Positions 1,808 through 27,761 of a DNA stretch of 64,000 nucleotides are shown here, piece after piece (the first letter of the stretch is position 1; every line of letters begins with the position of its first letter). Where the stretch lies: the NCBI GenBank assembly GCA_000092065.1, contig CP000589.1, one strand, 5' to 3'. A program made the position numbers and the translations under genes. The DNA comes from Ostreococcus lucimarinus. Its lineage: Eukaryota. Below the pieces are notes generated by a model. The model had not been told where the DNA came from. It did no database searches and saw nothing but the letters and a program-made list of their open reading frames with translations.

Positions 1808-1833
1808 CGCCGGGTCGCGCGCGACGCGCGCGC

Positions 1834-12760: not shown

Positions 12761-15418
12761 TTGCGAGCGATGGCGCGCGAAGACGGCGCGCGACGCAAGG
12801 AACGCAAGGACGAGCGCACGGTGGCGATGGAGAAGATGGTGATGGAACTCGCGGCGGCGGCGGCGGTGGTGGATGGGAATAAAACGTCGGTGAGCGAACG
12901 GGCGAGCGGGGCAAGCGGCGGGAGCAGCCTGACGAGGGCGCCGGACGCGGAGCGAGAGCGCGAGGAGGGACAAGCGTTGACGTTGGACGCGTTGGTGATG
13001 GCGAGCGCTGGATCGAATAAAAGAGCGAAGAGCGCGGGCGTTAAAGTGGCGAAACGGAAGAAGATGGAAGATAAGGGGGAGCGAAGGTGGTATTGTTGCT
13101 CGTGCAAGCAGACGCTGACGCCGGAACACTTCGATCCGAATTTGGAGACGTGTCGGTTGTGCTTGGCGAAACGTCGAGCGAAAGATCGGGCGAAGAAACG
13201 ACTTCGAGGGCTTCAGCTCAAGCATCACTTGTTGAGTGCGGATGAGAAAGATGTGGCGGCGTTTTTGTTGGGAGTGTATCATCCGGCGCTCACGCAGCAA
13301 GGGCCGCGATCTTCATCTTTTAACTCCATACAGATGAACGTGCAACGAGCGTCGATGGAAGTGAGCGCATTCGTAGAGGACTTCCGCAGCTTCCTCGAGG
13401 ACAAGCCCAAGGAACAAGCGGACAGATTGGTCCGCACGTTTTTGGGTTTGGACGATGCTGGAGAAAGGCTCACACCTCATCAAGTGATCAACGAGAAGGG
13501 TTCCGCGAAGAGGAATACGATGTCATCCAAAGCGAATAGCGCAAAGGCGACGCACAACTATCGCGCCCCAGCTTCATCGATGGGTGGCCGGCAAGAGTTG
13601 ACGAAGAGCCTGGACACCGTATACGATAAGTACGACGCGCTATTGAAAAACACCAGCGATGATCAAACGTGGGTTCGTTTCGCGGCGGAGAACGAGCAGG
13701 ACACTGATCTGGATGCTGAGAAGGTCAACTATTCCGCACCGATACATGAATCAGCTGCCGAAACCGGCACAAACGAGAAGGATGACGTGTACAGCGCCAT
13801 CATGCACGGCGCGGATCCCACCGTCAGTCATTACCTGTATCAATTCTTGTTCATGAATCAGCCGACAATCGGAGGCGAACACAGCACGATGGTCGTGGAG
13901 AGTGATCTCCCACAGCTTACGGGCCAGCTTCCATTGCGCGCAGTCGATAGCCTTTCGGAAGGGTCCAGCTTAAATGGTGCGACTAATGTGAGCTCGGAAT
14001 CGGACAACGTGTACAACACCTTGGATGAAGAGGAGCTGAACGGCAACGCATACGCGTTCAAGGGCTCGCTCGTGATGGGTTGGATTGGAGGCGCTCGTGA
14101 TGGAAAGAGAGAACTGCTAGCGAAAGAGAACGGTATCCTTCCGGACGATATGCACCCGCAAGCTGTGTTTAGCCATGGAAGACTGTTCGACGCGCGCACG
14201 CCTGGGAAGTTGGTTCCTCTCACCGAGACGGAGAACTTACACGGGTTTTCAGAAGATCTTGCGATTTTCCCCGTCAAGGATTCTTCGTCTGACATCGTTC
14301 GCATTCATATTCCGCCGGGATCTTTCAGCGAGGAGCTCGGTGTGAGAGCGTTGCACGATGGTCACTACATCGATTCTGAACTTCGCCACAGGCGCAACGG
14401 CGGAGCCGAGGTGATCCTATACCCGAACGGTAGAGACGATCGAGAGCGCAACGCAATCGTTATCCTCGGTGCTGTTCATTTACAATGTTTCGTTCGTAGC
14501 GGTACGGCGAAACAGATGCCTATCGGTTGCAACATCCCAGCGCTCTTCATACCGAGCCAAGCGCACGCGAAAGAGATTAGCGATGGCGTAGAGCACATTG
14601 CGCAAGTCAAGGGTACGAAAGCGGCCCGGCAGTTTTTGTCTTCGCTCGCGTACGTACTTGTGCACGGCGAACCAAAGAGCGCTAAGTTTGAGTTTGTCGT
14701 CGAAATGGCGCACATCCTCGCGCTCACGAGAACTTTGGATCTGCTCGAGCGATTGGCGATGTTGGCAAAGTCGTCGCTATCGAGCGATGATTCAGACACT
14801 TCTATCTCCGAAGTAGCGAGATTAGAAGTCTATAAGCCCTCGGATAATTTCTGGCAACACGCCGGTCATACCGACTCTTTTCTTGGAATCCTCCTTTGTC
14901 TTGTTGCGGGATTTATCCGTCTTATCGCTTCGGCTGTGAGCGGAGCGCGACTGAATTATGGATTCTATGCCACGCTCTTGGCCGCGGCCGCGCTTTCGGC
15001 AACGAACCCGAAGACCCGTGTAGACATCAAAAGCATTGCCTTCAACATGCTTTTTATCTGGGCACACGCAGCATCCATGCACTCAGATGATCTGACCAAT
15101 CAAATGACGTCTTACGGCAAGGCGCTGGTCATCACGCTTGCGCTCTCGGCACTGAACGCCTCGCATTCGCGCATGAGCAGCTCGTCAAGCTTTGTGTTAC
15201 CACAGCTCGCCTTTGCCGGAAGTGGCTATAACCCACACACCATTTTCCGCTTTATGAAGCAAGCGTTGCCTCAGGACGGAAGTATACCACAAAACGCGCT
15301 GCGAGCGCACGCCTGGACCGTTCACATCAGTTGCGCACTGCTGGCACCCGCGATCCTCATCTCTTGTATTTCGCAACTTCCAGGTGCACGAGTTCGCTCA
15401 AAATCTAAGCTTGCGTGA
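12761..15418 (+). CDS. large hypothetical protein with N-terminal Cys4 zinc-ribbon-like motif and C-terminal multi-TM region
   Basis: 885-aa ORF. CCSCKQTLTPEHFDPNLETCRLC motif. At least five hydrophobic helices in the last 200 aa. GC content falls sharply inside this gene (start of the low-GC island). No family recognised. Confidence 0.45.
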   Translation: MRAMAREDGARRKERKDERTVAMEKMVMELAAAAAVVDGNKTSVSERASGASGGSSLTRAPDAEREREEGQALTLDALVMASAGSNKRAKSAGVKVAKRKKMEDKGERRWYCCSCKQTLTPEHFDPNLETCRLCLAKRRAKDRAKKRLRGLQLKHHLLSADEKDVAAFLLGVYHPALTQQGPRSSSFNSIQMNVQRASMEVSAFVEDFRSFLEDKPKEQADRLVRTFLGLDDAGERLTPHQVINEKGSAKRNTMSSKANSAKATHNYRAPASSMGGRQELTKSLDTVYDKYDALLKNTSDDQTWVRFAAENEQDTDLDAEKVNYSAPIHESAAETGTNEKDDVYSAIMHGADPTVSHYLYQFLFMNQPTIGGEHSTMVVESDLPQLTGQLPLRAVDSLSEGSSLNGATNVSSESDNVYNTLDEEELNGNAYAFKGSLVMGWIGGARDGKRELLAKENGILPDDMHPQAVFSHGRLFDARTPGKLVPLTETENLHGFSEDLAIFPVKDSSSDIVRIHIPPGSFSEELGVRALHDGHYIDSELRHRRNGGAEVILYPNGRDDRERNAIVILGAVHLQCFVRSGTAKQMPIGCNIPALFIPSQAHAKEISDGVEHIAQVKGTKAARQFLSSLAYVLVHGEPKSAKFEFVVEMAHILALTRTLDLLERLAMLAKSSLSSDDSDTSISEVARLEVYKPSDNFWQHAGHTDSFLGILLCLVAGFIRLIASAVSGARLNYGFYATLLAAAALSATNPKTRVDIKSIAFNMLFIWAHAASMHSDDLTNQMTSYGKALVITLALSALNASHSRMSSSSSFVLPQLAFAGSGYNPHTIFRFMKQALPQDGSIPQNALRAHAWTVHISCALLAPAILISCISQLPGARVRSKSKLA

Positions 15419-15509
15419 GCAAGCGTTGTATGAGATAAGTTTTGGTACCATTACACTCTTTTAACGCTATCATCTACTAAACTGATATTCCGCAAGCTCT
15501 CCAATTGCT

Positions 15510-16553
15510 TCACGTTGCCGCGCCCGTTGTGTACAATTCCATCGCCAAACTCACTAGTGCGATGCTAATGATTATTCGCAGCGGCATCGTCTCGTGTTCG
15601 ATACATACGTGAATGATGGCGACCACGAGCATCGACAGCGCGGACACAAAACATTTGTAAATGTTGTCCAGGTACTTCAGAATGAAAGACACTGCCAACC
15701 CGCCGAACGACAGGACGACCAAACTTACCCAAGCATAAAAGTTGAATCCGGTAAAAAGTCCATTCTTTAACGCTTCTCCTTTCCAAACTATTGGAATCGC
15801 ACCACAAATCACGCCCCAAAAGTACAGTTGCATATTCTGCCAATGAATGCTATCCGTCGCCCCGTCTTGGTTGCTGCCCTTGAGCAGCTTCTCCGACAAC
15901 ACACTCCCGGACGCAGCGATGAACGTGTTTATCACCACAAGCACGTACCCATACACACTCCCGCGTAACTGATTAGAATCTGTGATCTCCGCCGTGACAG
16001 ATCCCAATAATAACAAGAACAGCGCTCTCCACTGCAACGAAGTTAACCGCCGCCCGAGCAGCGTCCACATCAGCACCCCGGTACTTAAAATTTTCAAGTT
16101 ATTCATGATCTGATACGTCGACGGCCCCAGTTCTTGTATGATGAGGAGCATACAGTTATTCGCGACGAAATAGCACAGCGCGGGAAGCGCAAACGAGGTG
16201 AAGCGTTTCGCGCTCCACGTCACTTCTTCGACTCCTCCGCACGCCCGCGACGTCGTCAAAAAGATGAACGACAACACCAGCTTCACCGACTCCATCGTGA
16301 ACGCCAGCACCACGGTATCGTACGGATAATCATCATCACTGTTCCGGCTCAGACTCGCGAATATCGTTCCCGCCACTTGCAGGAACAAGTACGACACCAT
16401 GCTCAACACCTTGATCGACAGCGGCGTTTCCGTCCTTCCGTCGCTCTTCTTCTCGGTCGGCGTCGCATCTCGCGCGAGTTCGCCGTCCGCATCCTTCCCA
16501 TCTCGCGCGAGCAGCGATTCGCGCTCATTCGCGCTCGCGCTCGCGCTCGCCAT
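15510..16553 (-). CDS. nucleotide-sugar transporter (SLC35A/UDP-galactose/CMP-sialic acid transporter family)
   Basis: 347-aa polytopic ORF. Conserved NST blocks (LKILSTGVLMWTLLGRRL, LLLLGSVTA, FALPALCYFVANNCMLLIIQELGPSTYQIMNNLKI). Confidence 0.75.
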   Translation of the reverse strand: MASASASANERESLLARDGKDADGELARDATPTEKKSDGRTETPLSIKVLSMVSYLFLQVAGTIFASLSRNSDDDYPYDTVVLAFTMESVKLVLSFIFLTTSRACGGVEEVTWSAKRFTSFALPALCYFVANNCMLLIIQELGPSTYQIMNNLKILSTGVLMWTLLGRRLTSLQWRALFLLLLGSVTAEITDSNQLRGSVYGYVLVVINTFIAASGSVLSEKLLKGSNQDGATDSIHWQNMQLYFWGVICGAIPIVWKGEALKNGLFTGFNFYAWVSLVVLSFGGLAVSFILKYLDNIYKCFVSALSMLVVAIIHVCIEHETMPLRIIISIALVSLAMELYTTGAAT

Positions 16554-16662
16554 CGCGTCGGTGTCTGCCGCAACGAACGATGGGTGTTACGTCGCGCGAG
16601 CCATCGCGGCAGACGCCGACGCGATTCGCGTCGTTCGCGGACGAAGCGACCGCGCGCGAACC
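16554..16662. promoter_or_regulatory. putative bidirectional promoter between divergently transcribed transporter and methyltransferase genes
   Basis: Only 109 bp separate the start codons at 16553 (minus) and 16663 (plus). This is an inference from gene arrangement only. Confidence 0.3.
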
Positions 16663-17955
16663 ATGGAATGCGTCGATTCTCTCGACGACACCGCGCACGC
16701 GGAGGACGGGCACGAGGAGTACTGCGCGGACACGGCGGTGTCGACGGCGCGCGTCCGGACGCTGCCGAAGACGCGCATCGTCGCGCGAAACGCGTGCGCG
16801 ATCACGGGCGCGAGCGACTTCGAGCCGCTGCTCACGCTGCGAGATTTTCCGGTGGGGATGTACTGCGTCCCGGAGGAGTGGGACGGCGTGGAGTACGTCG
16901 CGGACATGCGATGGTGCGTGAGCAAGAGCTCGGGGGTGATCCAGCTCGCGGAACTCATCGAGGCGGAGACGCTGTATGATTGTCAACACGAGAGCGGCGC
17001 GATCGGAGGACTGTGGAAGCGACATCACGAAGAATTTTGTGAGTTTATCGATGCGTACGGATGTGAGAGCGTGTTGGAGATCGGCAGTGGACACGGACAT
17101 CTGGCGAAGGAGTTTGTCGCGCGAAGACGCGGGAAATGCCGATGGACAATGGTGGAACCGAACTTGCCGAGTTGGTTGCTCACGGGTGATCATCCGAGCG
17201 AAATTCACCCGATCTCGGCGTGGTTTTGTGATTCGTTCGAATTACCGAAAGACGTACCGAAAATCGACGCTGTGGTACATTCGCACACGTTTGAGCACAT
17301 CTACGATTACGACGAGTTTCTTCGCAACGTGGCAAGAATGGAACCCAAGTTTCAAATATTTTCGGTGCCACACCAGCGGGAATGGCTGGCGCGTGGTTGG
17401 CAAAATAGCATCATGTTCGAACACCCGCAACTGTTGACGCCGAAAGCGATCGAGTACATTATGTCACGTCACGGTTTCGAGTTGCAAGGAAAGAAAGTTT
17501 TCGCCGACGGGCACTCAATGTTTTACGCGTTTTCATACGCGGGAAACGCGAGCAAAAGCGAGACATCGCAGCAATCTCTCGATGAGTACGCAGAGAACAA
17601 GCGTCTTTTTCGTAACTGGCTCAAATCCAACGTTGATTTCGTCCAGAATGTGAACGATCGCATCGATGAAGCGACTATGAATGGAGAAAAGCCAACAGTT
17701 TACATGTTTGGGGCGCACATCTTCACGCAGTACCTCGTCAGCTTTGGATTGCGTATATCCGCAGTTGAGGCGATTTTGGATAACGCCGAAGGAAAGCAAG
17801 GAAAGAGACTGTACGGCCTTCCTCTCTTGGTGCACTCTCCGAAAATTCTCTCTAATGTAGAACGACCAATCGTCATCTTACGAGTCGGCGCGTACGCCGA
17901 AGAAATAAAACGCGGCATTCTCGAAGTGAACGCTCGCACGGTCTTTTGGGAGTAA
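16663..17955 (+). CDS. bacterial-type sugar C-methyltransferase (TylC3-like; Methyltransf_13/14 plus C-methyltransferase C-terminal domain)
   Basis: N-terminal Cys-rich Zn-ribbon-like region. SAM motif I VLEIGSGHGHLAKEF. C-terminal domain resembling the C-methyltransferase C-terminal domain (PTVYMFGAHIFTQYLVSFGL). Low GC (about 50%) relative to the window average. The upstream in-frame ORF part (16399-16662) overlaps the transporter gene and is not counted. Confidence 0.6.
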   Translation: MECVDSLDDTAHAEDGHEEYCADTAVSTARVRTLPKTRIVARNACAITGASDFEPLLTLRDFPVGMYCVPEEWDGVEYVADMRWCVSKSSGVIQLAELIEAETLYDCQHESGAIGGLWKRHHEEFCEFIDAYGCESVLEIGSGHGHLAKEFVARRRGKCRWTMVEPNLPSWLLTGDHPSEIHPISAWFCDSFELPKDVPKIDAVVHSHTFEHIYDYDEFLRNVARMEPKFQIFSVPHQREWLARGWQNSIMFEHPQLLTPKAIEYIMSRHGFELQGKKVFADGHSMFYAFSYAGNASKSETSQQSLDEYAENKRLFRNWLKSNVDFVQNVNDRIDEATMNGEKPTVYMFGAHIFTQYLVSFGLRISAVEAILDNAEGKQGKRLYGLPLLVHSPKILSNVERPIVILRVGAYAEEIKRGILEVNARTVFWE

Positions 17956-18025
17956 GGCGGGTACAGACGTTGAACGATTGTGTGTTAGCATAGCTTAGAA
18001 GCTGTAGTACTTACATATTTCAATT

Positions 18026-20347
18026 TCACGCCATGACACTTGTCACACCCCGCGCGGCCCACTCGGCGTCGTACAAATGCGTAAACGCATTGGCCAGCCT
18101 TAAAATGTACATGAAGGGAAAGTTGGGTTCGCTGAGCTTGCTCGCATCGATGCACCCGAACCACACAGCCACAAACAAAGGAAATCCAGCCAAAGCGCTG
18201 CTTACTTGTGCGATGCGCTCATCTTTCGGTACGACGACGTTGTCCAACTTTTGCCTAGAATCATAATACGTGTTGACGAGCACTTCGGCCAATTGTTCAA
18301 AGTCCTCTATGTCACAGCTCTCGACGAGAAGGAACACGATGTCTTCGATACCTTGACCTGGGCGCGCGTACTGCCAATCAATAAAGATTGGTTCGCCGCC
18401 GTTCACTTGATAATCCCAGAATAAATTTGGAAATTTGAGGTCACCGTGAAGAAGCGTTTGCGGAGCTCTTCGAAGTCGCAGCTCGGCGTCCGCAAAGTTT
18501 GCCGCCGCGTGGTCAAACAGCACGAAAACTTGTTCACCGAGCGTATTGAACCATCGATTTCGAAACGTTGCGTAGTGTTCTTGCACGTGCTGTCGCATAT
18601 ACGTGTCATAAACCGATAGCCTTCCCAACGGCGCGCCTCGGAAGTGTGAATGCAACCTCGCCATCGTGTTCACCACCTTGAGGCCGCTTTCAAGACAAAA
18701 GTCTGGCGCTCGATCATACTTTCGTAAATCCTCCATGACGATAGCGCGTGACGTCGGAAGGACGCCGTAGCAGATCGGTACACGTACCGGCATGATACTC
18801 GCAAAATCTTCATAGAACTTACACTCGGTGTCGTGAAGGTTCAAGTGTTCGCTCACCTCCATCAAGACTCCGTGATCAGAGTTTTCTTGCTTCACCACAA
18901 GATGTCTTGAACCGGAGGTCGCCGAAAGAATTTCAGAAATGTAGCCACCGCTTGCTCGAATCGGATACACAACGGATCGTTGACCCAATACTTCGGACAG
19001 TTCGTTAGAAAGGTGCGCCACAGAATTCATCGTCTCCAATAACTCCTCTGGGTCTTCAGCGACATAATTCGCGATAAACGAATCGCTGCCTGACACGTTT
19101 GTATTAACAGAGACGACGTATTGGCATCCCGCTGCGCGTCCGGAAATCAAACCGCATCGAGAGTCCTCGAAGACAATGGAGTTTCCGATCGAGACTCCAA
19201 GTCTTCTCGCCGCTTTCAAGTACGGCTCCGCGTTTGGTTTACCAAATCTCACGTCACTCGCGGAAATAAGCGGTAAATCATCCAATGCAAGATGTTTCAA
19301 CAAAGCTTTGGCGGCGGTTCTGTTGGAATTAGTCACTACGGACACTGGTCCGAGCGCACGACACTTTTGCACAAATTCCACCGCGCCTGGAATTTCTTTG
19401 GTCTTTTCGATGTATCGCAAGAACGCTTCGTCTTTCTGCTCTGACGAAATCTGCAGCTTGAAACGCTGCGCGACTTGGGCGTCAGATTGTCCGCTGATGT
19501 GTTTGAGGAAGAATTCTTCGTCGACAAACGCGCCCATCGGAGCGAGGATCTCGCGCCAAGCCGCGACGTAGGCATCCGTGGTGTCCACAAGAGTACCGTC
19601 CAAATCAAACAAAAATGCATATCCCTGTTTGGACAAGTACTGCTCTAAACACTCAGGCGTACCGATGTTCGAGTATTGGTCCTCAGCGATGACGACGGAG
19701 CTGACGTGCTTGTCTCGCGCGACGTACTCTTTCAAAACGCATGAAACGTACGCCTCGCCGCGCTCAAACTTTCCTTCTTGAGTCAAAATATCCTTCGTCA
19801 ATTCAAGAAATTCTTTTTCACTCGCGAACCAGTACGCTCCAGTGTTCGCGTAAGGACCCACGCGCGACTTCTCCGCGATTTTGGTCACGCGTCCGCCGTC
19901 CCCGCTCGTCTCAACGTATGAATATTTTGCCGCCGTCTCACGCTCACGCGCGGATTCCTCAAAGCACAGGACCGCCGCGCGCACCTCCGGTTGTTTTTCC
20001 AGCGCCCGAAACCGTTCGATGACGTCGCAATGATACACCGCATCGCAGTCCACCAACAGGAGCGACGCGTCGTTTGTCGCCGACACCGTCCCCAGCGCGA
20101 GCGCCGCCGTCTCCGCCGCCCCGACCGTCGCACGCGCCAAGCGCACCGTGGTGAACCCTCGTTCGGGGACGGAATCATCGAAATTCGTCACCACGACGCA
20201 CGTGTCGCGGTTGTCATCGACGCACAGCGCTTCCGTGACGACGTGTATCATCGCCTTGCCGATCACTGGGATGAGCGGCTTGATGTCTTCGTAGCCTTGC
20301 GCTCGGAAGCGCTCGCCGCGTCCACACGCTGGAATGAGGACGCGCAT
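18026..20347 (-). CDS. tri-domain fusion: sugar-phosphate nucleotidyltransferase (MurU/LicC-like) + HAD beta-phosphoglucomutase-like phosphatase + choline-kinase/aminoglycoside-phosphotransferase-like kinase (AmgK-like)
   Basis: 773-aa ORF. N-terminal MRVLIPACGRGERF ... IKPLIPVIGKAMIHV (nucleotidyltransferase GxGxR motif). Central YAFLFDLDGTLVDTT ... SIVFEDSRCGLISGRAAG (HAD motifs I-III). C-terminal LLHGDLKFPNLFW (Brenner motif) and IDWQYARPGQGIEDIVFLLVE (ChoK/APH motif). Confidence 0.7.
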   Translation of the reverse strand: MRVLIPACGRGERFRAQGYEDIKPLIPVIGKAMIHVVTEALCVDDNRDTCVVVTNFDDSVPERGFTTVRLARATVGAAETAALALGTVSATNDASLLLVDCDAVYHCDVIERFRALEKQPEVRAAVLCFEESARERETAAKYSYVETSGDGGRVTKIAEKSRVGPYANTGAYWFASEKEFLELTKDILTQEGKFERGEAYVSCVLKEYVARDKHVSSVVIAEDQYSNIGTPECLEQYLSKQGYAFLFDLDGTLVDTTDAYVAAWREILAPMGAFVDEEFFLKHISGQSDAQVAQRFKLQISSEQKDEAFLRYIEKTKEIPGAVEFVQKCRALGPVSVVTNSNRTAAKALLKHLALDDLPLISASDVRFGKPNAEPYLKAARRLGVSIGNSIVFEDSRCGLISGRAAGCQYVVSVNTNVSGSDSFIANYVAEDPEELLETMNSVAHLSNELSEVLGQRSVVYPIRASGGYISEILSATSGSRHLVVKQENSDHGVLMEVSEHLNLHDTECKFYEDFASIMPVRVPICYGVLPTSRAIVMEDLRKYDRAPDFCLESGLKVVNTMARLHSHFRGAPLGRLSVYDTYMRQHVQEHYATFRNRWFNTLGEQVFVLFDHAAANFADAELRLRRAPQTLLHGDLKFPNLFWDYQVNGGEPIFIDWQYARPGQGIEDIVFLLVESCDIEDFEQLAEVLVNTYYDSRQKLDNVVVPKDERIAQVSSALAGFPLFVAVWFGCIDASKLSEPNFPFMYILRLANAFTHLYDAEWAARGVTSVMA

Positions 20348-20572: not shown

Positions 20573-21208
20573 CTAGCACGTGGGTCCACGCGCCGCGGGC
20601 CGCTCGGGAGGCGCCGGCTTGGCCGCCGCCGAGCCCGCGGCCTCAGCCTCAGCCGCGGCCGCGGCCGCGCGCTTCTCGAGCCAGTCTTTGGCTCGCTCGC
20701 GGTATTTAGCGTTCGCCTCTGTACTAATCTTGTTTGCCGCGTTACAGGCATTGATCATCGTCGTGTTGCCCTCAGAGATTCCGTGACACCAATGCACACC
20801 CATCCCGTCGCGATCCGGCCACGCCGAGTGCCCTAACGATATGCCGCGACGGACGTTGCAGTGGGCGTAGTCCGCCACGTGAAAAATAGATGCCTCAGGA
20901 CTCATTTGTGAACGGGGACTTACGCACGCGACGCTTTTCAATACATCCGTTCCTTGACCCCAAAAAGCATTGGCGCGCGAACTGTGCACGACGTAAAAGG
21001 CGTCGTTGTACTTCCAATACCAGTCCTCGTCAAAGATAAGCGTAGGTTGGACAGCGTCCGTGTCGTGGTTCGTGTCCCGACCGTCCCACAACGTCCTGGC
21101 AAAGTCCACGGGCGGTGGCGCGTACCAAAAGTACTCGGGTCGACCGTGCATGTACCACGAAAAGTGTATGTTTTTCTCCTTCTCCACTTTACGCGCCATG
21201 CAAAGCAA
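20573..21208 (-). pseudogene. truncated tandem paralog (C-terminal half only, no TM anchor) of the downstream 21237-22394 type-II membrane protein; possible pseudogene or truncated soluble paralog
   Basis: 211-aa ORF begins at the position homologous to residue ~190 of the neighbour (LCMARKVEKEKNIHFSWYMHGRPEYFWYAPPPVDF versus LCMARKVEQEKNIHFSWFVRSRPDYFWYGPPPVDF). About 80% nucleotide identity over about 280 bp. Both end in GPTC-stop. Confidence 0.4.
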
Positions 21209-21236
21209 CTTCTGAGCTTTGTCAAAGTGCTTCTAA

Positions 21237-22394
21237 CTAGCACGTCGGTCCCATCGATTGCATCGGCGGGTCGTCGGCGTACGCGTTCAAAGAGCGCCAG
21301 TGGCTTACTTGCGCTCGGTAAACTTTAGTCTCTGACACACTAATTGCCTGGGCACGCTCGCACGGATGTATGTGCCTCTGAAGTGTGTAATCTACGCAAC
21401 TCAGCGTACCTTGTCCTGGCTTTGCGGTTGGCCGAGCCGATCGCTCGAACCCGATTCCCACGGCCCTCGACGCCGCCCCGACGAGGTCTACCACTTTGTG
21501 AAGGGCTGTCTCCGGAGTCATACGTTCAAGGAAGACGTGACCGGTCGCGGGGATCTCAGCTCGGCATGGTAATTTCGACAAAATCGATGACCCTGGGCCC
21601 AGTATACCATCGGCGTGCGAACTGTGCACGGCGTATAAGGCGTCGTTGTACTTGTGACGCCAATCCTCGTCAAAGATGAACGCGTGCGCGCTGTCTGTAC
21701 CCCTACCGTCCCACAACGTCGTGGCAAAGTCCACGGGCGGCGGCCCGTACCAAAAGTAATCGGGTCGACTCCGAACGAACCACGAAAAGTGTATGTTTTT
21801 CTCCTGCTCCACTTTGCGCGCCATGCAAAGCAGCCTTTTGCTCAAATCGAACTGCGCGTACGTCGTCGCCGGCGAAAAGTAGTCGTCTTTTTTCACCTTG
21901 AATCCACGCGCAGCGCAATGCTGTCCCCAAGGATCCTTCGTGTCTAAGTCATAAGCCGAGGCCGTGTAAAACGAAACCGCCACGGGTCGAATGACGTCCA
22001 GCGCGCGTTGCAGCACGTGCGGATACACCTTTGGAAACATCGCCGATCGGTCTCGCCACCCGCTCACGTCTGCGATACTCAGGAGCATGATCGGGTGCAC
22101 GTTCACGCAGCGCTCCGCCATCCAATCCAGCACATTCGTCTTCAAACCCTTGGAGACGTGATCCAACACCATCCCGCGCACCGATCCTCCGATGAGGAAC
22201 GCGACGTCCGCGCGTCCCTCCGCGCACGACTGCGCGCCGAGCGCGTCGCGCCGCGCCGTCGCCGACGCGACGACGATCGCCACCGCCGCGATCAGCGACA
22301 ATAACGACCCAACGCGCGTCCGTCGCGCGCTCCTAGAGCCATCATCGCCGATGAGCGGCGTCGCCTCGTCCGTCATCGCGCCGCGAACACCCAT
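21237..22394 (-). CDS. type-II membrane protein (short cytosolic N-terminus, signal anchor, lumenal domain), lineage-specific; possibly glycosyltransferase-like
   Basis: 385-aa ORF. TM VGSLLSLIAAVAIVVASA. Conserved-looking blocks NIHFSWF, YFWYGPPPVDF, IFDEDW. No named family recognised. Confidence 0.5.
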   Translation of the reverse strand: MGVRGAMTDEATPLIGDDGSRSARRTRVGSLLSLIAAVAIVVASATARRDALGAQSCAEGRADVAFLIGGSVRGMVLDHVSKGLKTNVLDWMAERCVNVHPIMLLSIADVSGWRDRSAMFPKVYPHVLQRALDVIRPVAVSFYTASAYDLDTKDPWGQHCAARGFKVKKDDYFSPATTYAQFDLSKRLLCMARKVEQEKNIHFSWFVRSRPDYFWYGPPPVDFATTLWDGRGTDSAHAFIFDEDWRHKYNDALYAVHSSHADGILGPGSSILSKLPCRAEIPATGHVFLERMTPETALHKVVDLVGAASRAVGIGFERSARPTAKPGQGTLSCVDYTLQRHIHPCERAQAISVSETKVYRAQVSHWRSLNAYADDPPMQSMGPTC

Positions 22395-22455
22395 CGATCA
22401 CGAACCGCGTCGCCGCGCGCGCGACGCGCGTCGGTTTTCGCGTCGCCGCGCGCGC

Positions 22456-22598
22456 GACGCGCGTCGGTTTTCGCGTCGCCGCACCGCGCGCGCGATGGTG
22501 CGTCGCACAGTGCGACGCCGATGCATCGCATCGCGCGCGTCGCCATGTCCTCGGCGCCCCTGCACGACGCGCGCGCGCGCGGAAGGATGTCCGACGCG
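22456..22598 (+). repeat. dispersed duplicate of the 5' UTR / start-codon / transit-peptide region of the S9 peptidase gene (original at 24904-25046), with an extra 31-bp local tandem copy at 22421-22451
   Basis: About 143 bp, about 99% identical to 24904-25046, including atgcatcgcatcgcgcgcgtcgccatgtcctcggcg. Confidence 0.8.
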
Positions 22599-22619
22599 AA
22601 GGATGTCCGACGTATCAAT

Positions 22620-23029
22620 ACGTCGACGGCCCCAGTTCTTGTATGATGAGGAGCATACAGTTATTCGCGACGAAATAGCACAGCGCGGGAAGCGCAAACG
22701 AGGTGAAGCGTTTCGCGCTCCACGTCACTTCTTCGACTCCTCCGCACGCCCGCGACGTCGTCAAAAAGATGAACGACAACACCAGCTTCACCGACTCCAT
22801 CGTGAACGCCAGCACCACGGTATCGTACGGATAATCATCATCACTGTTCCGGCTCAGACTCGCGAATATCGTTCCCGCCACTTGCAGGAACAAGTACGAC
22901 ACCATGCTCAACACCTTGATCGACAGCGGCGTTTCCGTCCTTCCGTCGCTCTTCTTCTCGGTCGGCGTCGCATCTCGCGCGAGTTCGCCGTCCGCATCCT
23001 TCCCATCTCGCGCGAACAGCGGTTCGCGA
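22620..23029 (-). pseudogene. duplicated fragment of the nucleotide-sugar transporter gene (copy of 16114-16523, N-terminal ~145 codons without start codon)
   Basis: About 410 bp nearly identical to 16114-16523. The fragment lacks the first ~10 codons. It is fused in an ORF (22615-23565) to sequence antisense of the GT25 gene, so it is treated as a chimeric pseudogene. Confidence 0.7.
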
Positions 23030-23188
23030 GTCTGGAAAGCGCTTCCGTGCGGTACAAGCGAGTCGCCCCAATAGGAGTAGGTGTAGCCTAGCTGTAGCTG
23101 TAGCTCCGTCGCCGACAAATGTCCGACCGATCGACAGAGACCGACGCGCGTCCGCAGCCGACACTGCGCGCGCCCACGCGACGCGAGA

Positions 23189-24742
23189 ATGAGTGACAAA
23201 GACGCGCAAAGCATCTCTCGCGGCGAGCGCTCGAATTTGCTCGCGCGCAACGCCGCGAACGGCGTCGTTGAGGGTGTTGCGAGCATCCTGGACGAAGAGC
23301 GCGGTGAGACCGACGTGAGCGAGCGATCCCGAGCGAGAACGTCGACGTCGCGAGGATGTCTCGCGAGTGTTGCGCTGATGGCGTGTGCGGTCGGCGCGGG
23401 GATGGCGGTCGCGTCGCGCGGGGGGGTCGACGACGCGAGGACGAGCGCACGAGCTCGCGGCGGTGGGAAATCGACGCTCGGGATCAGTGGAGCGACACGA
23501 GCTCGCGGCGGTGGGAAATCGACGCTCGGGATCAGTGGAGCGACGGGAGTGCGGACGTATATCATAGCAGATACGTCGCCCGGAGACGAGATGGAGAGAT
23601 CTAGGAAAGGACGCGATTACGTGTTCAACCTGTTCAAAACGCACGGTGGTTTGAGCGACGCCGAAGCGCGCAATACTGTGGAAATCTCGAGTGCGACGTT
23701 TCCTTCGCTTTGGCCGGATACCTTCGAGACAGCGCGAAGCGCGACGCACGATGTACTAGCGGGAGCCCTTGCTGCTTCAGAAGCGAACGTTCCAACCAGT
23801 GAGTTGCCGTATCCCATCAGACAGGTTCACGAATCGCAGCTCAATCCACAGCACCGTTGCGTCGGCGAAAAATGCGTATTCCCGTATAACCACCACCTTG
23901 GATGTCTTCTATCTCACATGTCTGTGTGGAAGAAAGCTATTTCGCGAGGTGAGGATCGGTTTGCCGTGTGGGAGCAAGATGGTATGGGGATCGCTTCCGT
24001 GAGCCCGCTTGACTACACAGAGCTCGGACGCCAGCTTCCTCGCGACGCAGATATGGTCTGGCTCCTCCCCATTGGAAGAAGCACCGGTCAATTCGTGAAA
24101 AAGTTCCGCTCAAGGGCGTTTGGCACGTGGGGGAAAGGTACCTGGGGTCTCGTAAAGACAGACTGGTCGCCCGAATCGATGCACACGGCGATGAATTCAA
24201 CGCACGTTTATTTGTACAAGTGGAACAAAATGTGCTCGTGGGCAGGAACGGCAGCTCTCATGTTCACCAAGCAAGGCGTCGAGAAAATTCTTCGGTACAG
24301 TACCGAACACAGTCTCGACATGATCGATGCTTTCCTCATTGGCGGATGCATCCATAAATCGGGAAAGACGAGTCGTCTTTCCTTGAACTGTTATCACGCG
24401 TCGAGCGTGCCAACCAAGAAAGAGCTCCTGGGTGGAATCGTGCCCGATTGGTACACTGACGAAACCGTGGGCGATCGAGCACTTCCTCAAGAGCAGGTTG
24501 ACGCCATGGATCGGGATGACGCCAAGTTCAACTCGCTTGGTTGTCAGCGCGGCGGCGACGAGTTCAAGTCAAAATCTGCCTGGATTCCCACGTCCTGGGC
24601 TGGAGACGACTCCGCGGATTCGTGCGTTCCCTCCTGGAACGCCCCGGTGGACGTGTGCGATGCATCCGTGAAGTATCCACTCGATGGACACAAGTACTCA
24701 TACCTCGGCAGCGCGATGTTGCGTACAAAGCCCGAGCGTTAG
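23189..24742 (+). CDS. glycosyltransferase family 25 (Lic2A/LPS-beta-1,4-galactosyltransferase-like) type-II membrane protein
   Basis: 517-aa ORF. Signal anchor CLASVALMACAVGAGMAVA. GT25 hallmark GCLLSHMSVWKKAISRGEDRFAVWEQD. Internal 48-bp tandem duplication encoding ARGGGKSTLGISGAT twice in the stem. Confidence 0.6.
   Translation: MSDKDAQSISRGERSNLLARNAANGVVEGVASILDEERGETDVSERSRARTSTSRGCLASVALMACAVGAGMAVASRGGVDDARTSARARGGGKSTLGISGATRARGGGKSTLGISGATGVRTYIIADTSPGDEMERSRKGRDYVFNLFKTHGGLSDAEARNTVEISSATFPSLWPDTFETARSATHDVLAGALAASEANVPTSELPYPIRQVHESQLNPQHRCVGEKCVFPYNHHLGCLLSHMSVWKKAISRGEDRFAVWEQDGMGIASVSPLDYTELGRQLPRDADMVWLLPIGRSTGQFVKKFRSRAFGTWGKGTWGLVKTDWSPESMHTAMNSTHVYLYKWNKMCSWAGTAALMFTKQGVEKILRYSTEHSLDMIDAFLIGGCIHKSGKTSRLSLNCYHASSVPTKKELLGGIVPDWYTDETVGDRALPQEQVDAMDRDDAKFNSLGCQRGGDEFKSKSAWIPTSWAGDDSADSCVPSWNAPVDVCDASVKYPLDGHKYSYLGSAMLRTKPER
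23449..23544 (+). repeat. perfect 48-bp tandem duplication inside the GT25 coding region
   Basis: acgagctcgcggcggtgggaaatcgacgctcgggatcagtggagcgac occurs twice consecutively (23449-23496 and 23497-23544). Confidence 0.9.
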
Positions 24743-24968
24743 CGACGCTTGTAAAGAAACAGCCTAGGGGTGCTTGAATCCGGTATTGGGAATTTCCCGA
24801 TACGTATCAAAAACGACTGTTTTCATACTGTTTGCCCATACGAAAAGCCTAATACGTTGATACGCCAATACGGTATCAGCTCGTATCAAGTGCAGCAGGC
24901 CTAGACGCGCGTCGGTTTTCGCGTCGCCGCACCGCGCGCGCGATGGTGCGCGGCACAGTGCGACGCCG

Positions 24969-27761
24969 ATGCATCGCATCGCGCGCGTCGCCATGTCCTC
25001 GGCGCCCCTGCACGACGCGCGCGCGCGCGGAAGGATGTCCGACGCGAAACGCGCGCTCGTCGCGCGCGCGAGAGGCGCGTTCGACGCCGTCGCGGGACGG
25101 CGTCGACGCGTGAACGTCGCGAGCGGTGGTGACGAACGCGGGACGACGACGCGGGAGGACGCGCGCGCGAGCGATGGGGACGACGCGAACGGGTACCGAC
25201 GCCCGCCGGACGCGCTGACGCAGTTCACGGAGCGACCGCAGAGCCCGAACGTGACGGTGTCGCCCGATCGAAGGCGCTTGCTGTATTTGCACAAACCGCC
25301 GCCGCTGCCGGACGTGGCGACGCTCGCGCGAGAGGAGGTGAAACTGGCGGGCGTGCGGATCGATGCGGCGCAAAATTCGACGTCGAGGATGGGACATCAA
25401 ACGAAATTGGCGATCGGAGCGATGCCTGCGAGAGAGGAGGAGATCGGAGCGGCGGAAGATTTCGTCGGGACTCCGGAGAACGCGCTGATTAACTACGTGA
25501 GTTGGTCGCCGGATGGGACAAAGATAGCGTTTACGACGCGCTCGAGCGGAGAACCGGGTGAGCCAGAGCGAGGACCGTTGACACTTTGGATCGCCGACGC
25601 GCACACGCGACAGTGCCGAGTGCTGCTTCCCGATCGTGGGTTGAATACTATTTTTGAGTCGTACAGTTGGTTGAACGACGACGTCATCGTCGCGTGTTGC
25701 ATTCCAGAAAATCGACCCAAGGAAGCGCCGAAGCGACCGCAGACGCCGTTCGGGCCGAGAATTCAAACAAACCGAGGTGGTAACGTGGCACAGGCGCGAA
25801 CGTACGCCGATTTATTGAAAGACTCGCACGATGCGGATTTATTCGATTACTATTGTTCGTCGGAACTCGTGGCGGTGGACGTCTCCACCGGGGCGACGAA
25901 GACTTGGGGTGATGGAAAGGCGAGAATCTACACGCGCTGCGATCCGTCGCCCGACGGAAAATATGCTATCGTCGAAGCCATTCATCGGCCCTACTCGTAC
26001 TCGGTGCCGTGTGGTAGGTTTCCAAAGAAGGTTTGGGTGGCGGACAGCGACGGCAAAGTCGTGCGCGAGGTCGCGGACTTACCTTTGGCCGAGAATGTGC
26101 CCATCGTGCACAACGCCACGCGTAAAGGACCTCGTGCGGTGAACTGGCGTTCGGATAAGAGTGCGTCGTTGTACTGGACCGAGGCGCAAGATGAGGGTGA
26201 TCCGAGAGTCGAAGTCTCCCCTCGAGACGTCACGTACACGGTCGACGTCGGCAAAGATCCTGCGGCGACGCCCAAGACGCTGTTTCAAACTGATTATCGC
26301 TACGGTGGCGTCGCATGGGGCGGCGATGATATGTCGATTTTATATGAGAGTTGGTACAAGACACGCACGTCGCGAGTGTGGGTGACTTCGCCGGGCGACG
26401 CCGATCCGAATGCGACAAAGCGCATGCTTTGGGAGCGCGACTACGAAGACAGTTACAACGCTCCCGGTTCATTTGCTACACGCCGGACGGAAGATGGATC
26501 GTACATTCTGGCGCGTGTCGTCGGACCGACGCCGTTGGGAGAAGGTAAACCCACGGGTCCGGGAGTGAAGCTGTTGTTGCAGGGAGACGGCGCGAATCCA
26601 GAAGGCGATAGACCCTTCATCGACTTGTTCGACGTCGACACCGGCGCCAAGCATCGAATGTGGGAAAGCAAACCGCCGTATTTGGAGCATCCGGGGAGTT
26701 TGATCAGCGATTACGGCGGCCCCGAGGCGGCGCCTGTCACGCTCGAAACTATGCGCATATTGTTCTCTCGAGAGAGCCCGTCGGAGAATTCGCAATTCTT
26801 TTCGCTTCAAATGACCGCCGACGGCTCGCCCGGAAAAGAGGTGAAAATTTCAAATTTCCCTCATCCACATCCCGACTTAAAGGAGCTGCCGAAGGAAATA
26901 ATCAAGTACAAGCGCGACGACGGCGTTGAGCTCAACGGCACGCTGTACACGCCGCCCGGGTACGACGCCGCGCACGATGGTCCGCTACCACTCCTGATGT
27001 GGGCTTATCCACGAGAGTTCAAAACAAAAGAAGCTGCATCGCAGCTACGCGATTCACCGTATCGCTTCACCGGTATCGGCCCATCGAGCGCGTTGGTGTG
27101 GCTTGCGCGTGGATACGCAGTGCTCGACGGGCCGGCGTTGCCCATCATCGGCGAAGGCGAGGGTGTGGAACCGAACGATACGTACGTCGAACAACTCGTC
27201 GCTGGCGCGCGTGCGGCGGTGAACGAAGTCGTTGCGCGCGGTGTCGCGGATCCGGAGCGCATCGCTGTCGGCGGTCACTCGTATGGCGCGTTCATGGCGG
27301 CGAATTTGCTCGCGCACGCACCGGATTTGTTCGCGTGCGCCATCGCGCGAAGCGGGGCATACAATCGAACGCTAACGCCTTTCGGGTTTCAAGCCGAAGA
27401 ACGCACGCTGTGGGAAGCGCCGGAAACGTACAACGCGATGTCACCGTTCATGAACGCGCACAAGATTAAAAAGCCGATTTTATTGATCCACGGCGAGGAG
27501 GATCAAAACAGCGGTACCCATCTCATGCAATCCGAACGCTTCTTCTCCGCTCTCAAGGGTAACGGTGCCGAGGTCAAGCTTGTCATTTTACCGCACGAGT
27601 CTCACGGCTATCGCGCCAAAGAAAGCATCAACCACATGCTCGCCGAGACGTCTGATTGGCTGGACGCGCACTGCGCGCCAGGGGCGAAGAAAGCCGCCGA
27701 GGCGCGCGCGGAGGAAGCCGCCAAGGCGAAGCGCGACGCCGAGGAGATGGTTTCGAAGTAA
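24969..27761 (+). CDS. S9-family serine peptidase, glutamyl-endopeptidase (chloroplast CGEP)-like, with N-terminal targeting peptide
   Basis: 930-aa ORF. Beta-propeller region then alpha/beta-hydrolase domain with catalytic triad context GGHSYGAFMAANLL (GxSxG), LIHGEEDQNSG (Asp), LPHESHGY (His). Confidence 0.8.
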   Translation: MHRIARVAMSSAPLHDARARGRMSDAKRALVARARGAFDAVAGRRRRVNVASGGDERGTTTREDARASDGDDANGYRRPPDALTQFTERPQSPNVTVSPDRRRLLYLHKPPPLPDVATLAREEVKLAGVRIDAAQNSTSRMGHQTKLAIGAMPAREEEIGAAEDFVGTPENALINYVSWSPDGTKIAFTTRSSGEPGEPERGPLTLWIADAHTRQCRVLLPDRGLNTIFESYSWLNDDVIVACCIPENRPKEAPKRPQTPFGPRIQTNRGGNVAQARTYADLLKDSHDADLFDYYCSSELVAVDVSTGATKTWGDGKARIYTRCDPSPDGKYAIVEAIHRPYSYSVPCGRFPKKVWVADSDGKVVREVADLPLAENVPIVHNATRKGPRAVNWRSDKSASLYWTEAQDEGDPRVEVSPRDVTYTVDVGKDPAATPKTLFQTDYRYGGVAWGGDDMSILYESWYKTRTSRVWVTSPGDADPNATKRMLWERDYEDSYNAPGSFATRRTEDGSYILARVVGPTPLGEGKPTGPGVKLLLQGDGANPEGDRPFIDLFDVDTGAKHRMWESKPPYLEHPGSLISDYGGPEAAPVTLETMRILFSRESPSENSQFFSLQMTADGSPGKEVKISNFPHPHPDLKELPKEIIKYKRDDGVELNGTLYTPPGYDAAHDGPLPLLMWAYPREFKTKEAASQLRDSPYRFTGIGPSSALVWLARGYAVLDGPALPIIGEGEGVEPNDTYVEQLVAGARAAVNEVVARGVADPERIAVGGHSYGAFMAANLLAHAPDLFACAIARSGAYNRTLTPFGFQAEERTLWEAPETYNAMSPFMNAHKIKKPILLIHGEEDQNSGTHLMQSERFFSALKGNGAEVKLVILPHESHGYRAKESINHMLAETSDWLDAHCAPGAKKAAEARAEEAAKAKRDAEEMVSK

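What the first reader, a model, noticed from the sequence alone, without database searches (positions are those of the whole stretch)
22420..23100. Mosaic junction of duplicated gene fragments; direct repeats bracket the GT25 gene and the methyltransferase/fusion-gene block
22456-22598 is a near-identical copy of 24904-25046, the 5' UTR plus the start codon and first codons of the S9 peptidase gene. It is immediately followed by 22620-23029, a copy of 16114-16523 (N-terminal ~145 codons of the sugar transporter, same orientation). The junction reads gatgtccgacg-tatca-atacgtcgacgg, an 18-bp near-palindrome (22608-22625), consistent with microhomology-mediated joining. Consequently two pairs of direct repeats exist: one pair (410 bp) spans about 6.5 kb around the methyltransferase, the fusion gene and the paralogs; the other pair (143 bp) spans about 2.4 kb around GT25. 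Homologous recombination between them could delete or amplify these glycosylation genes - a plausible copy-number/phase-variation mechanism.
Basis: seen in the sequence. Interest (0 to 1): 0.65.

Follow-up and report, generated by a model that had tools for sequence, protein, structure and literature searches.

The report
Young mosaic insertion duplicating a glycosyltransferase gene
The repeats are real and are the scars of a recent 2.4-kb patchwork insertion that put an extra copy of a fast-evolving sugar-transferase gene from another chromosome into a glycosylation gene cluster of the marine alga Ostreococcus lucimarinus; wild populations still carry genomes with and without it.

Summary
Both repeat pairs exist: 16113-16523 = 22618-23028 (411 bp) and 22456-22600 = 24904-25048 (145 bp). 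Independent metagenome assemblies reproduce the junction, so it is not an assembly artefact.

Window 23026-24764 copies a complete gene whose home, in 9 of 9 long assemblies, is on another chromosome (357-aa gene, GT25, DUF842). The derived 2,448-bp unit consists of:
- a 12-nt slip-back copy
- a 10-nt inverted copy
- 411 bp of the local sugar-transporter gene
- the 1,739-bp GT25 segment
- 139 bp of unknown origin
- a 145-bp target-site duplication

Three junctions show 3-5 bp microhomology. The empty site (385-aa gene, single B, S9 peptidase) occurs in same-species contigs and in diverged lineages, so it is ancestral.

Best explanation: one microhomology-mediated, template-switching repair or replication event, followed by turnover of the GT25-to-S9 linker (three variants seen).

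The phase-variation idea is not supported. No amplification or circle junction appeared in 20 repeat-bearing contigs, and recombination between the 411-bp copies would destroy five genes.

This is a new member of a known kind. The copied gene shows a striking excess of amino-acid polymorphism.

The parts
16113..16523 (-). A1: the source copy, codons 11-147 of the intact nucleotide-sugar transporter gene (15510-16553)
   Evidence: Self-BLAST; alignment; Pfam PF04142
22406..22494 (.). 33-bp minisatellite (2.8 units) straddling the left edge of B1. Its copy number varies independently of the insertion.
   Evidence: TRF. One unit in L012 (empty site) and in L015 (mosaic allele); two units elsewhere.
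22456..22600 (+). B1: left copy of the 145-bp target-site duplication. It holds 65 bp upstream plus the first 26 codons of the S9 peptidase, here followed by a 41-codon dead-end ORF.
   Evidence: All B1 copies and all single-B alleles carry TC at 22503-4.
22598..22612 (+). Slip-back copy: the second unit of a 16-bp tandem GAAGGATGTCCGACGC (22582-22612). The point of departure from the S9 template has 3-bp microhomology (GAA).
   Evidence: TRF; alignment
22608..22617 (+). 10-nt inverted templated copy: CGACGTATCA is the reverse complement of 16111-16120. It overlaps the slip copy by 5 nt (CGACG), supplies the 'filler' TATCA, and creates the TGA stop that ends the transporter fragment.
   Evidence: exact match
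22618..23028 (-). A2: captured fragment of the transporter gene (codons 11-147, no start codon), probably a pseudogene piece. It has two substitutions within 11 bp of its right junction.
   Evidence: The same junction and the same substitutions are present in L020 and L049.
23026..24764 (+). GT25 segment: a 1,739-bp copy of a complete gene unit from the other chromosome. It holds 48 bp of the upstream 357-aa gene's 3' end, the intergenic region, the CDS 23189-24742, and 22 bp after the stop. The junction with A2 has 3-bp microhomology (GCG).
   Evidence: The fold search gives GT25 enzymes as its top hits.
23448..23543 (+). Exact 48-bp tandem duplication inside the GT25 CDS (16-aa repeat). It is polymorphic, giving products of 499-518 aa.
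24765..24903 (.). 139-bp AT-richer filler (44.6% GC, rich in GATAC/GTATC palindromes) of unknown origin. It is replaced by other linkers in other alleles.
   Evidence: No match in the window, the loci, IMG/VR or GTDB genomes. Variants in L028 and in L026/L030/L032/L049.
24904..25048 (+). B2: right copy of the target-site duplication and the working 5' end of the S9 peptidase gene (24969-27761). It carries the derived CG at 24951-2.

Best explanation
The window comes from Ostreococcus lucimarinus or a very close relative. The finding sits on a young, still polymorphic, complex insertion of 2,448 bp.

Ancestral state. The 385-aa gene and the S9 peptidase gene were divergent neighbours, 93-126 bp apart.

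The event (inferred). A break or stalled fork 80 nt into the S9 ORF was repaired by a DNA end that switched template several times, using 3-5 bp microhomologies:
1. It slipped back 16 nt.
2. It copied 10 nt in inverted orientation at the transporter gene 6.5 kb away.
3. It copied 411 nt of that gene.
4. It jumped to another chromosome and copied one whole glycosyltransferase gene unit (1,739 nt).
5. It copied 139 nt from an unidentified template.
6. It returned 145 bp behind its point of departure, which duplicated those 145 bp.

Result. An extra, intact GT25-like gene with its own upstream region now lies inside a lower-GC cluster of sugar-nucleotide and glycosylation genes.

The direct repeats are by-products. 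They can serve as recombination substrates, and B1xB2 recombination would restore the empty site exactly, but no such event is demonstrated.

After the insertion, the linker between GT25 and S9 was remodelled at least twice.

Shown: the anatomy, the source loci, the derived status and the polymorphism. Inferred: the order of switches and the enzymology.
For: Organism: window proteins cluster with O. lucimarinus CCE9901 proteins on a 670,853-bp chromosome.

Source of GT25:
- The same 1,739 bp lies between the 357-aa gene and DUF842/PIG-S in L021, L022, L035 and L036, and in 9 of 9 long contigs up to 1.13 Mb.
- Those neighbours map to the 1,152,508-bp CCE9901 chromosome.
- Same-length (447,922-bp) longest contigs reported for a 77%-identical GT25 homologue (P0100), an MCM_bind homologue (P0170) and a 357-aa homologue (P0178) suggest, but do not prove, that a related lineage has the same arrangement.

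Derived status: the empty site occurs in same-species contigs L012, L019, L025 and L029 and in diverged L023, L024 and L027.

Junctions:
- GAA at the slip.
- 22608-22617 is the exact reverse complement of 16111-16120, overlapping the slip copy by CGACG.
- GCG at the A2/GT25 junction.
- Base changes lie close to junctions.

Single origin: the identical A2/GT25 junction is found in the window, L020 and L049.

Precedent in the genus: O. tauri transgene integrations were flanked by a 518-bp direct duplication of the target and carried 64-83 bp inserts of unknown origin (PMC8002553).
Against: - Two of the five junctions cannot be examined because the source of the 139-bp piece is unknown.
- It is not shown that one genome holds both GT25 copies, so relocation instead of duplication is not excluded. 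L008 and the contig L034, which equals exactly the repeated segment, only suggest two copies in metagenomes.
- The window's exact 139-bp linker tail (24809-24903) has no independent confirmation. L028 shares only its first 44 bp.
- A multi-step history (several separate events) fits the sequence as well as a single event does.
- Contigs were retrieved by exact-protein look-ups, so allele counts are not population frequencies.
Confidence: 0.65

Rival explanations
1. One reading: the two direct-repeat pairs act as a recombination switch that deletes or amplifies the glycosylation genes (copy-number or phase variation).
For: - Direct repeats of 145 and 411 bp are present.
- Alleles with and without exactly the 2,448-bp unit coexist on nearly identical flanking haplotypes: L012 and L019 versus L020, L014 and L016.
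- Homologous recombination is reported as efficient in Ostreococcus (own knowledge; see also the literature).
Against: - The empty allele is ancestral, because it occurs in diverged lineages.
- All four same-species empty alleles carry TC, never the B2-specific CG.
- No 139-bp-piece/B/junction sequence (tandem array or circle) was seen in 20 B-bearing contigs.
- The apparent A1xA2 joins are scaffold N-gaps.
- An A1xA2 deletion would remove five genes and the transporter's start codon.
- Loss by B1xB2 recombination would be irreversible without a circle.
Confidence: 0.12
2. A chimeric extrachromosomal circle (B fragment + transporter fragment + GT25 + filler, ligated by end joining) integrated by a single crossover at B (Campbell-type). 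This automatically leaves B on both sides.
For: - The product has exactly the topology expected: the insert is flanked by direct copies of the homologous segment.
- All pieces are short and gene-sized.
Against: - No circle junction was found.
- It needs an extra step to make the circle.
- The slip-back and inverted short copies at the junction are polymerase template-switch signatures rather than ligation products.
Confidence: 0.1
3. Non-replicative capture: several free DNA fragments were ligated into a staggered double-strand break by end joining (including polymerase-theta-type joining), rather than copied by a migrating 3' end.
For: - O. tauri transformants show filler DNA, local duplications and rearrangements attributed to an NHEJ-like pathway (PMC8002553).
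- The 139-bp piece behaves like filler DNA.
Against: - A 145-bp target duplication needs synthesis, not ligation alone.
- Both identifiable long pieces have intact sources (A1 in the same window; chr-1 GT25 in all long assemblies), so they were copied, not cut.
Confidence: 0.1
4. A transposable element (Pack-MULE, Helitron or similar) captured the gene fragments and inserted here.
For: - Mosaics of gene fragments are typical of such elements.
- The linker is palindrome-rich and occurs partly inverted in L028.
Against: - There are no terminal inverted repeats at the ends of the unit.
- The flanking duplication is 145 bp, not 2-10 bp.
- No transposase or helicase ORF is present.
- The 139-bp piece is single-copy in the window and absent from all loci, from IMG/VR and from GTDB genomes.
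- The GT25 segment was seen at only two loci.
Confidence: 0.02
5. Assembly artefact: the mosaic does not exist as one molecule.
For: - Several public scaffolds misjoin across these repeats through N-gaps: L001/L011, L008 and L012.
Against: - N-free contigs from independent samples and assemblers reproduce B1, the junction, A2 and the GT25 5' end (L020, 100% identity).
- L049 reproduces A2, GT25 and the linker.

Confidence: 0.01

Closest known systems
Microhomology-mediated template-switching rearrangements (FoSTeS / MMBIR) and templated-sequence insertions at double-strand breaks
   Same: - Several segments are copied from dispersed templates while the sources stay intact.
- There are 3-5 bp microhomologies, short slip-back and inverted copies at the joints, and base changes near junctions.
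- A duplication arises where synthesis returns behind its point of departure.
   Different: - Those events are described mainly in human disease loci, cancers and yeast mutants (own knowledge; Onozawa 2014 is cited in PMC8002553).
- Here it is a natural, segregating allele in a haploid picoalga that carries a whole functional-looking gene.
- The enzymology is untested.
Integration-site architecture of foreign DNA in Ostreococcus tauri transformants (Thomy et al. 2021, PMC8002553)
   Same: - The insert is flanked by a long direct duplication of the target (518 bp there, 145 bp here).
- It carries 55-83 bp inserts of unknown or foreign origin and duplicated or inverted pieces.
   Different: - That was experimental PEG transformation with plasmid DNA.
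- Here the inserted material is the alga's own genes and the event happened in nature.
Hypervariable small outlier chromosome of Mamiellales (Blanc-Mathieu 2017, PMC5498103; Yau 2016, PMC5082852)
   Same: - Duplications and translocations of glycosyltransferase and sugar-transport genes.
- Copies arriving from standard chromosomes.
- A proposed link to virus resistance.
   Different: - This locus is on a 670,853-bp chromosome and the donor on a 1,152,508-bp chromosome, not on the ~150-kb outlier chromosome 18 of O. lucimarinus.
- No link to virus resistance was tested.
Gene-fragment capture by Pack-MULEs and Helitrons
   Same: A mosaic of fragments from unlinked genes in one block.
   Different: No terminal repeats, no short target-site duplication, no element-encoded enzyme, and not multi-copy.

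Membership tests
Template-switching complex rearrangement (FoSTeS/MMBIR-type templated insertion) | Inserted segments are copies of sequences elsewhere, and the sources are retained | tested here: met
   A1 is intact in the same window. GT25 is present at its home locus in 9 of 9 long assemblies. Retention in the same genome as the mosaic is not proven.
Template-switching complex rearrangement (FoSTeS/MMBIR-type templated insertion) | Microhomology or short templated insertions at breakpoints | tested here: met
   GAA, CGACG and GCG microhomologies, a 12-nt slip copy and a 10-nt inverted copy. Two junctions cannot be tested because the source of the 139-bp piece is unknown.
Template-switching complex rearrangement (FoSTeS/MMBIR-type templated insertion) | Base substitutions clustered near junctions (error-prone synthesis) | tested here: inconclusive
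   Two substitutions lie within 11 bp of the A2 right junction, against 0 in the other 398 bp. There is one dinucleotide change in B2. The numbers are too small for a test.
Template-switching complex rearrangement (FoSTeS/MMBIR-type templated insertion) | Arises in one replication or repair episode | not testable with these tools
   No intermediate alleles lacking only some of the pieces were found. Linker variants show later changes.
Transposable element with captured gene fragments | Terminal inverted repeats or Helitron ends, a short target-site duplication, and an element-encoded enzyme | tested here: not met
   No terminal repeats. The flanking duplication is 145 bp. ORFs and Pfam show no transposase or helicase.
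Repeat-mediated phase or copy-number variation switch | Direct repeats flank the variable unit and both states occur | tested here: met
   However, the 'off' state is the ancestral empty site.
Repeat-mediated phase or copy-number variation switch | Recombinant products beyond the ancestral state (tandem arrays, circles, A1xA2 deletion) | tested here: not met
   None in 20 B-bearing contigs. L008 and L012 join only through N-gaps. The sample is limited and ascertained.
Repeat-mediated phase or copy-number variation switch | Switching within a clonal lineage at measurable frequency | not testable with these tools
   Needs clonal cultures and long reads or junction PCR.
Glycosyltransferase family 25 (the cargo gene) | Sequence match to the Pfam PF01755 model at its gathering score | tested here: not met
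   18.4 bits against a cut-off of 24, E = 0.002, residues 236-264 only. The homologue P0003 scores 16 bits.
Glycosyltransferase family 25 (the cargo gene) | GT-A fold most similar to solved GT25 enzymes | tested here: met
   The AlphaFold model is moderate (pLDDT 57.7, pTM 0.63). The top 15 Foldseek PDB hits include bacterial beta-1,4-galactosyltransferases (8xgx, E = 2.6e-5, TM 0.51 on the target) and human COLGALT1 (9evk, 9evj), plus entries described only as 'a glycosyltransferase' (9u7i/9u7h); mimivirus R655 is hit 16. A DAD motif at residues 286-288 has D288 invariant in 9 homologues. Its role was not tested.
Mamiellales small-outlier-chromosome hypervariable region | Located on the small outlier chromosome | tested here: not met
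   Homologous CCE9901 proteins lie on chromosomes of 670,853 bp and 1,152,508 bp. The outlier chromosome of O. lucimarinus is about 150 kb (PMC5082852).

The most novel reading that the evidence does not exclude
On standard chromosomes of O. lucimarinus, a glycosyltransferase gene under diversifying selection is being actively shuffled.

In this reading:
- The template-switch insertion created a second copy inside a glycosylation island.
- The two copies then exchange sequence between chromosomes by ectopic gene conversion.
- They have even mediated a reciprocal translocation. Contigs L026 and L030 join more than 10 kb of the donor chromosome's left flank, through GT25, to the S9 peptidase side.

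This locus would then be a small 'immunity island' outside the outlier chromosome, where surface-glycan diversity against prasinoviruses is generated.
Probability: 0.2. Interest if true: 0.65.

Novelty: new member of a known kind. Interest (0 to 1): 0.45.

Why it matters
- It is a cleanly resolved natural example of how a compact, haploid eukaryotic genome gains a gene copy. One microhomology-driven patchwork event is documented from the ancestral empty site, through the donor locus, to later remodelling, all from wild populations.
- The copied gene is the most amino-acid-polymorphic gene in its neighbourhood. It landed among nucleotide-sugar transport and modification genes.
- This gene class is implicated in virus resistance in the sister species O. 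tauri, but there on the outlier chromosome.
- Natural strains with and without the extra copy therefore give a direct way to test whether glycosyltransferase dosage or diversity changes prasinovirus susceptibility.
- The repeats are also a warning for assemblers. Several public scaffolds misjoin across them.

Tried and rejected
- **Assembly artefact.** Rejected: N-free independent contigs reproduce the junctions.
- **Scaffold evidence for deletion alleles** (L001/L011, and L008 and L012 for A1xA2). Discarded, because the joins are runs of N inside or next to the repeats.
- **33-bp minisatellite as a marker** for revertant versus never-inserted alleles. Uninformative, because it varies in both allele classes.
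- **Transposon.** No terminal repeats and no enzyme.
- **Retrocopy of GT25.** Rejected: the segment includes the upstream intergenic region and 48 bp of the upstream gene, and has no poly-A.
- **Viral origin of the 139-bp piece or of GT25.** No exact matches and no relatives in IMG/VR.
- **Bacterial origin of the 139-bp piece.** No match in GTDB genomes.
- **Structured RNA in the region.** Only chance-level Rfam hits.
- **Exact-protein look-ups** of the window's GT25, of the CCE9901 536-aa model and of the 167-aa transporter-fragment ORF. Nothing on record.
- **Bacterial promoter and terminator scans.** Not run, because the genome is eukaryotic.

Full report
**1. Observation**

A self-BLAST of the 64-kb window and the repeat finder give two strong direct repeat pairs.
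- Pair A: 16113-16523 = 22618-23028. It is 411 bp with two mismatches, both in the last 13 bp.
- Pair B: 22456-22600 = 24904-25048. It is 145 bp with one dinucleotide difference at 22503-4.

The spacings of 6,505 and 2,448 bp are correct.

| Coordinates | Strand | Gene |
|---|---|---|
| 15510-16553 | - | nucleotide-sugar transporter |
| ends 17955 | + | methyltransferase |
| 18026-20347 | - | nucleotidyltransferase/HAD/kinase fusion |
| 20573-21208 and 21237-22394 | - | two paralogues |
| 24969-27761 | + | S9 peptidase |

The gene at 23189-24742 matches GT25 only weakly in sequence (18.4 bits against a cut-off of 24). Its predicted fold, however, finds solved GT25 enzymes as top hits.

Pair A is exactly codons 11-147 of the transporter and lacks the start codon. 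Pair B is 65 bp of upstream sequence plus 26 codons of the peptidase.

**2. Fine anatomy of the junction**

- After B1 the sequence slips back 16 nt. The tandem GAAGGATGTCCGACGC at 22582-22612 records this, and GAA is shared at the point of departure.
- The next ten bases, CGACGTATCA (22608-22617), are the exact reverse complement of 16111-16120. That stretch straddles the left edge of A1. The copy overlaps the slip copy by CGACG.
It also creates the TGA that terminates the transporter fragment.
- A 33-bp minisatellite (22406-22494) straddles the left edge of B1.

**3. Organism and independent confirmation**

Exact-protein look-ups place the window in Ostreococcus lucimarinus or a very close relative. 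Window proteins share 90% clusters with CCE9901 proteins on a 670,853-bp chromosome.

Public metagenome contigs 99.8-100% identical to the window were retrieved.
- L020 has no N and is 100% identical. It spans window 20663-23496, that is the 385-aa gene, B1, the junction, all of A2 and the GT25 5' end.
- L002/L013, L014, L015, L016 and L017 run through B1 and the junction and stop inside A2, as expected for short-read assemblies.

The mosaic is therefore real.

**4.

GT25 variants were found by homology and located on contigs.
- Window 23026-24764 (1,739 bp) is 97-99.8% identical to a segment that lies between a 357-aa gene and a DUF842/FAM136A gene.
- Around it sit MCM6, PATROL1, GT_PLOD, MCM_bind and zf-DNL on one side, and PIG-S and acyl-CoA oxidase on the other.
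- That arrangement is present in 9 of 9 long assemblies pulled out through the neighbouring 357-aa gene, up to 1.13 Mb long.
- Its neighbours correspond to CCE9901 proteins on the 1,152,508-bp chromosome.
- Homology with the window starts and stops sharply. It begins 48 bp inside the 3' end of the 357-aa gene and ends 22 bp after the GT25 stop.
- The A2/GT25 junction shares GCG between the two templates.
- The next 139 bp (24765-24903; 44.6% GC, palindrome-rich) match nothing in the window, the loci, IMG/VR or GTDB genomes.

**5. Polarity**

Contigs L012 and L019 have no N at this site. They are contiguous 385-aa gene, single B, S9 peptidase, and lack exactly the 2,448-bp unit. L025 and L029 show the same. 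So do three contigs from lineages only 85-96% identical to the window (L023, L024, L027).

The empty site is therefore ancestral and the mosaic is derived. The 145-bp pair is a target-site duplication.

A census of B copies in 20 contigs gave:

| Context of B | Contigs |
|---|---|
| 385-aa side, B, junction/A2 | 6 distinct contigs |
| empty site, same species | 4 |
| empty site, diverged lineages | 3 |
| 139-bp piece, B, S9 | the window only |
| variant linker, B, S9 | L028 |
| third linker (GATA), B, S9 | L026, L030, L032 |
| 139-bp piece, B, junction (tandem array or circle) | none |

- All empty alleles carry TC at the position where B2 of the window has CG.
- The 33-bp minisatellite varies in both allele classes, so it cannot tell revertants from never-inserted alleles.
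- Scaffolds that seemed to show deletion alleles (L001/L011 for B; L008 and L012 for A) are joined through runs of N. They were discarded as evidence.

**6. Later remodelling**

The linker between GT25 and B exists in three forms.
- The window's 139-bp piece.
- A form sharing its first 44 bp, then differing. It includes a 23-bp stretch in inverted orientation (L028).
- A 179-bp form that begins with a perfect 12-bp fold-back of the GT25 3' end and contains the C-terminal half of a GATA zinc finger (Pfam E = 6.8e-6).

L049 has no N. It carries A2, the identical A2/GT25 junction, GT25 and the GATA linker. So the GATA form sits on the same mosaic lineage, and the insertion had a single origin with subsequent linker turnover.

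Contigs L026 and L030 join at least 10 kb of the donor chromosome's left flank, through GT25 and the GATA linker, to S9. The contig L034 consists exactly of the 1,738-bp repeated segment. L031, L033, L046, L047 and L048 break at its edges. This shows that the segment has two contexts on each side in those samples.

SNP patterns show that the GT25 of L030 resembles donor-locus haplotypes in its middle and the L049 copy at its 3' end. This fits three readings, and I cannot tell them apart:
- ectopic gene conversion between the two copies
- a translocation by recombination between the two copies
- an assembler chimera across the repeat

**7. Mechanism**

The best fit is a single microhomology-mediated, template-switching repair or replication event (FoSTeS/MMBIR or templated-insertion type). 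The supporting features are:
- Several copied pieces whose sources stay intact.
- 3-5 bp microhomologies at the three junctions that can be examined.
- Short slip-back and inverted copies.
- Substitutions next to junctions.
- A duplication created by returning 145 bp behind the departure point.

The same architecture was observed experimentally at plasmid integration sites in O. tauri, with a long flanking target duplication and filler of unknown origin (PMC8002553).

Alternatives are listed with their weights in the rival-explanations section: integration of a chimeric circle, ligation of free fragments, a transposon, and a dedicated recombination switch. There are no terminal repeats and no element-encoded enzymes.

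**8. The recombination-switch idea**

B1xB2 recombination would restore the empty site precisely and is mechanistically plausible. Nothing in the data requires it, and no amplification product was seen.

A1xA2 recombination would delete the methyltransferase, the fusion gene, both paralogues and B1. It would also replace the transporter's first ten codons and its promoter. That is unlikely to be a tolerated, regulated switch.

**9. Context and significance**

- The insertion lies in a stretch of lower GC (50-56% in 13-20 kb against 60% for the window). That stretch is rich in sugar-nucleotide and glycosylation genes.
- In nine contigs retrieved without reference to GT25, the gene (codons 120-517) has 20 segregating sites. 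Nineteen are in codons that change the amino acid. piN is 0.0086 against piS 0.0022.
- Its neighbours have 0-9 segregating sites, and where piS is non-zero (PIG-S, MCM_bind) piN is below piS.
- This suggests diversifying selection, although relaxed constraint is not excluded.
- Both mosaic alleles whose ORF is fully covered (the window and L049) keep it intact.
- In O. tauri, glycosyltransferase genes and rearrangements are linked to virus resistance, but on the small outlier chromosome (PMC5082852, PMC5498103). Here the events involve two standard-size chromosomes.

**10. Verdict**

- Observation: confirmed.
- Interpretation: partly supported.
- The feature is a new member of a known kind, a natural templated mosaic insertion and gene duplication.
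- It is of moderate interest, chiefly because the ancestral site, the donor, the product and later variants are all visible in wild populations, and because of the nature of the duplicated gene.

Noticed in passing
window 23546-24739 (GT25 codons 120-517); loci L037-L045: The GT25-like gene has a strong excess of amino-acid polymorphism. In 9 contigs retrieved via the neighbouring gene there are 20 segregating sites, 19 of them in codons that change the amino acid (piN 0.0086, piS 0.0022), and 8 distinct haplotypes. Flanking genes have 0-9 segregating sites.
   Followed up: partly
window 23448-23543: There is an exact 48-bp tandem duplication (16-aa repeat) in the disordered N-terminal part of GT25. 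The copy number and nearby indels vary between strains, giving products of 499-518 aa at the donor locus as well.
   Followed up: partly
L026, L030 (also L032, L033, L049): A linker carries a perfect 12-bp fold-back of the GT25 3' end plus half of a GATA zinc-finger gene. In L026 and L030 it connects at least 10 kb of the donor chromosome's left flank to the S9 peptidase. This is either a translocation between the two GT25 copies or an assembler chimera.
   Followed up: partly
window 20573-22394; L025 5334-6453, L029 5378-8162: The array of paralogues (the 385-aa and 208/211-aa family, with a weak DUF7796 hit) varies in copy number between strains. L029 carries about two extra copies.
   Followed up: no
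window 22406-22494: A 33-bp GC-rich minisatellite lies in the 93-126-bp divergent promoter region between the 385-aa gene and the S9 peptidase. It has one or two full units in different strains, independently of the insertion.
   Followed up: yes
L015 (position equivalent to window 16466-16498): One contig has a 33-bp in-frame deletion inside the transporter's N-terminal region (within A1). It may be an assembly effect at the contig end inside the repeat.
   Followed up: no
window 13000-20000: This stretch has lower GC (50-54%) than the 60% of the window. It holds the transporter, the methyltransferase, the triple-fusion enzyme and a large ORF with no Pfam match (12761-15418). It looks like an island on a standard chromosome.
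   Followed up: no
window 18026-20347 (-): A single 773-aa protein fuses a sugar-phosphate nucleotidyltransferase, a HAD phosphatase and an APH/EcKL-type kinase. It is plausibly a one-chain pathway for making an activated sugar. In CCE9901 it is annotated only as a 168-aa partial model.
   Followed up: no
window 47330-47692: There are about 4 tandem copies of an 81-bp unit (27 codons), 75-80% alike. This is probably a repeat-domain coding region.
   Followed up: no
window 1816-2056: A GC-rich imperfect palindrome of about 240 bp (74-75% self-complementary) lies in the most GC-rich kilobase of the window (71% GC).
   Followed up: no
L001/L011, L008, L012 (JGI scaffolds): Public metagenome scaffolds join across the 145-bp and 411-bp repeats through runs of N. 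This mimics deletion alleles and is a trap for automated structural-variant calls.
   Followed up: yes
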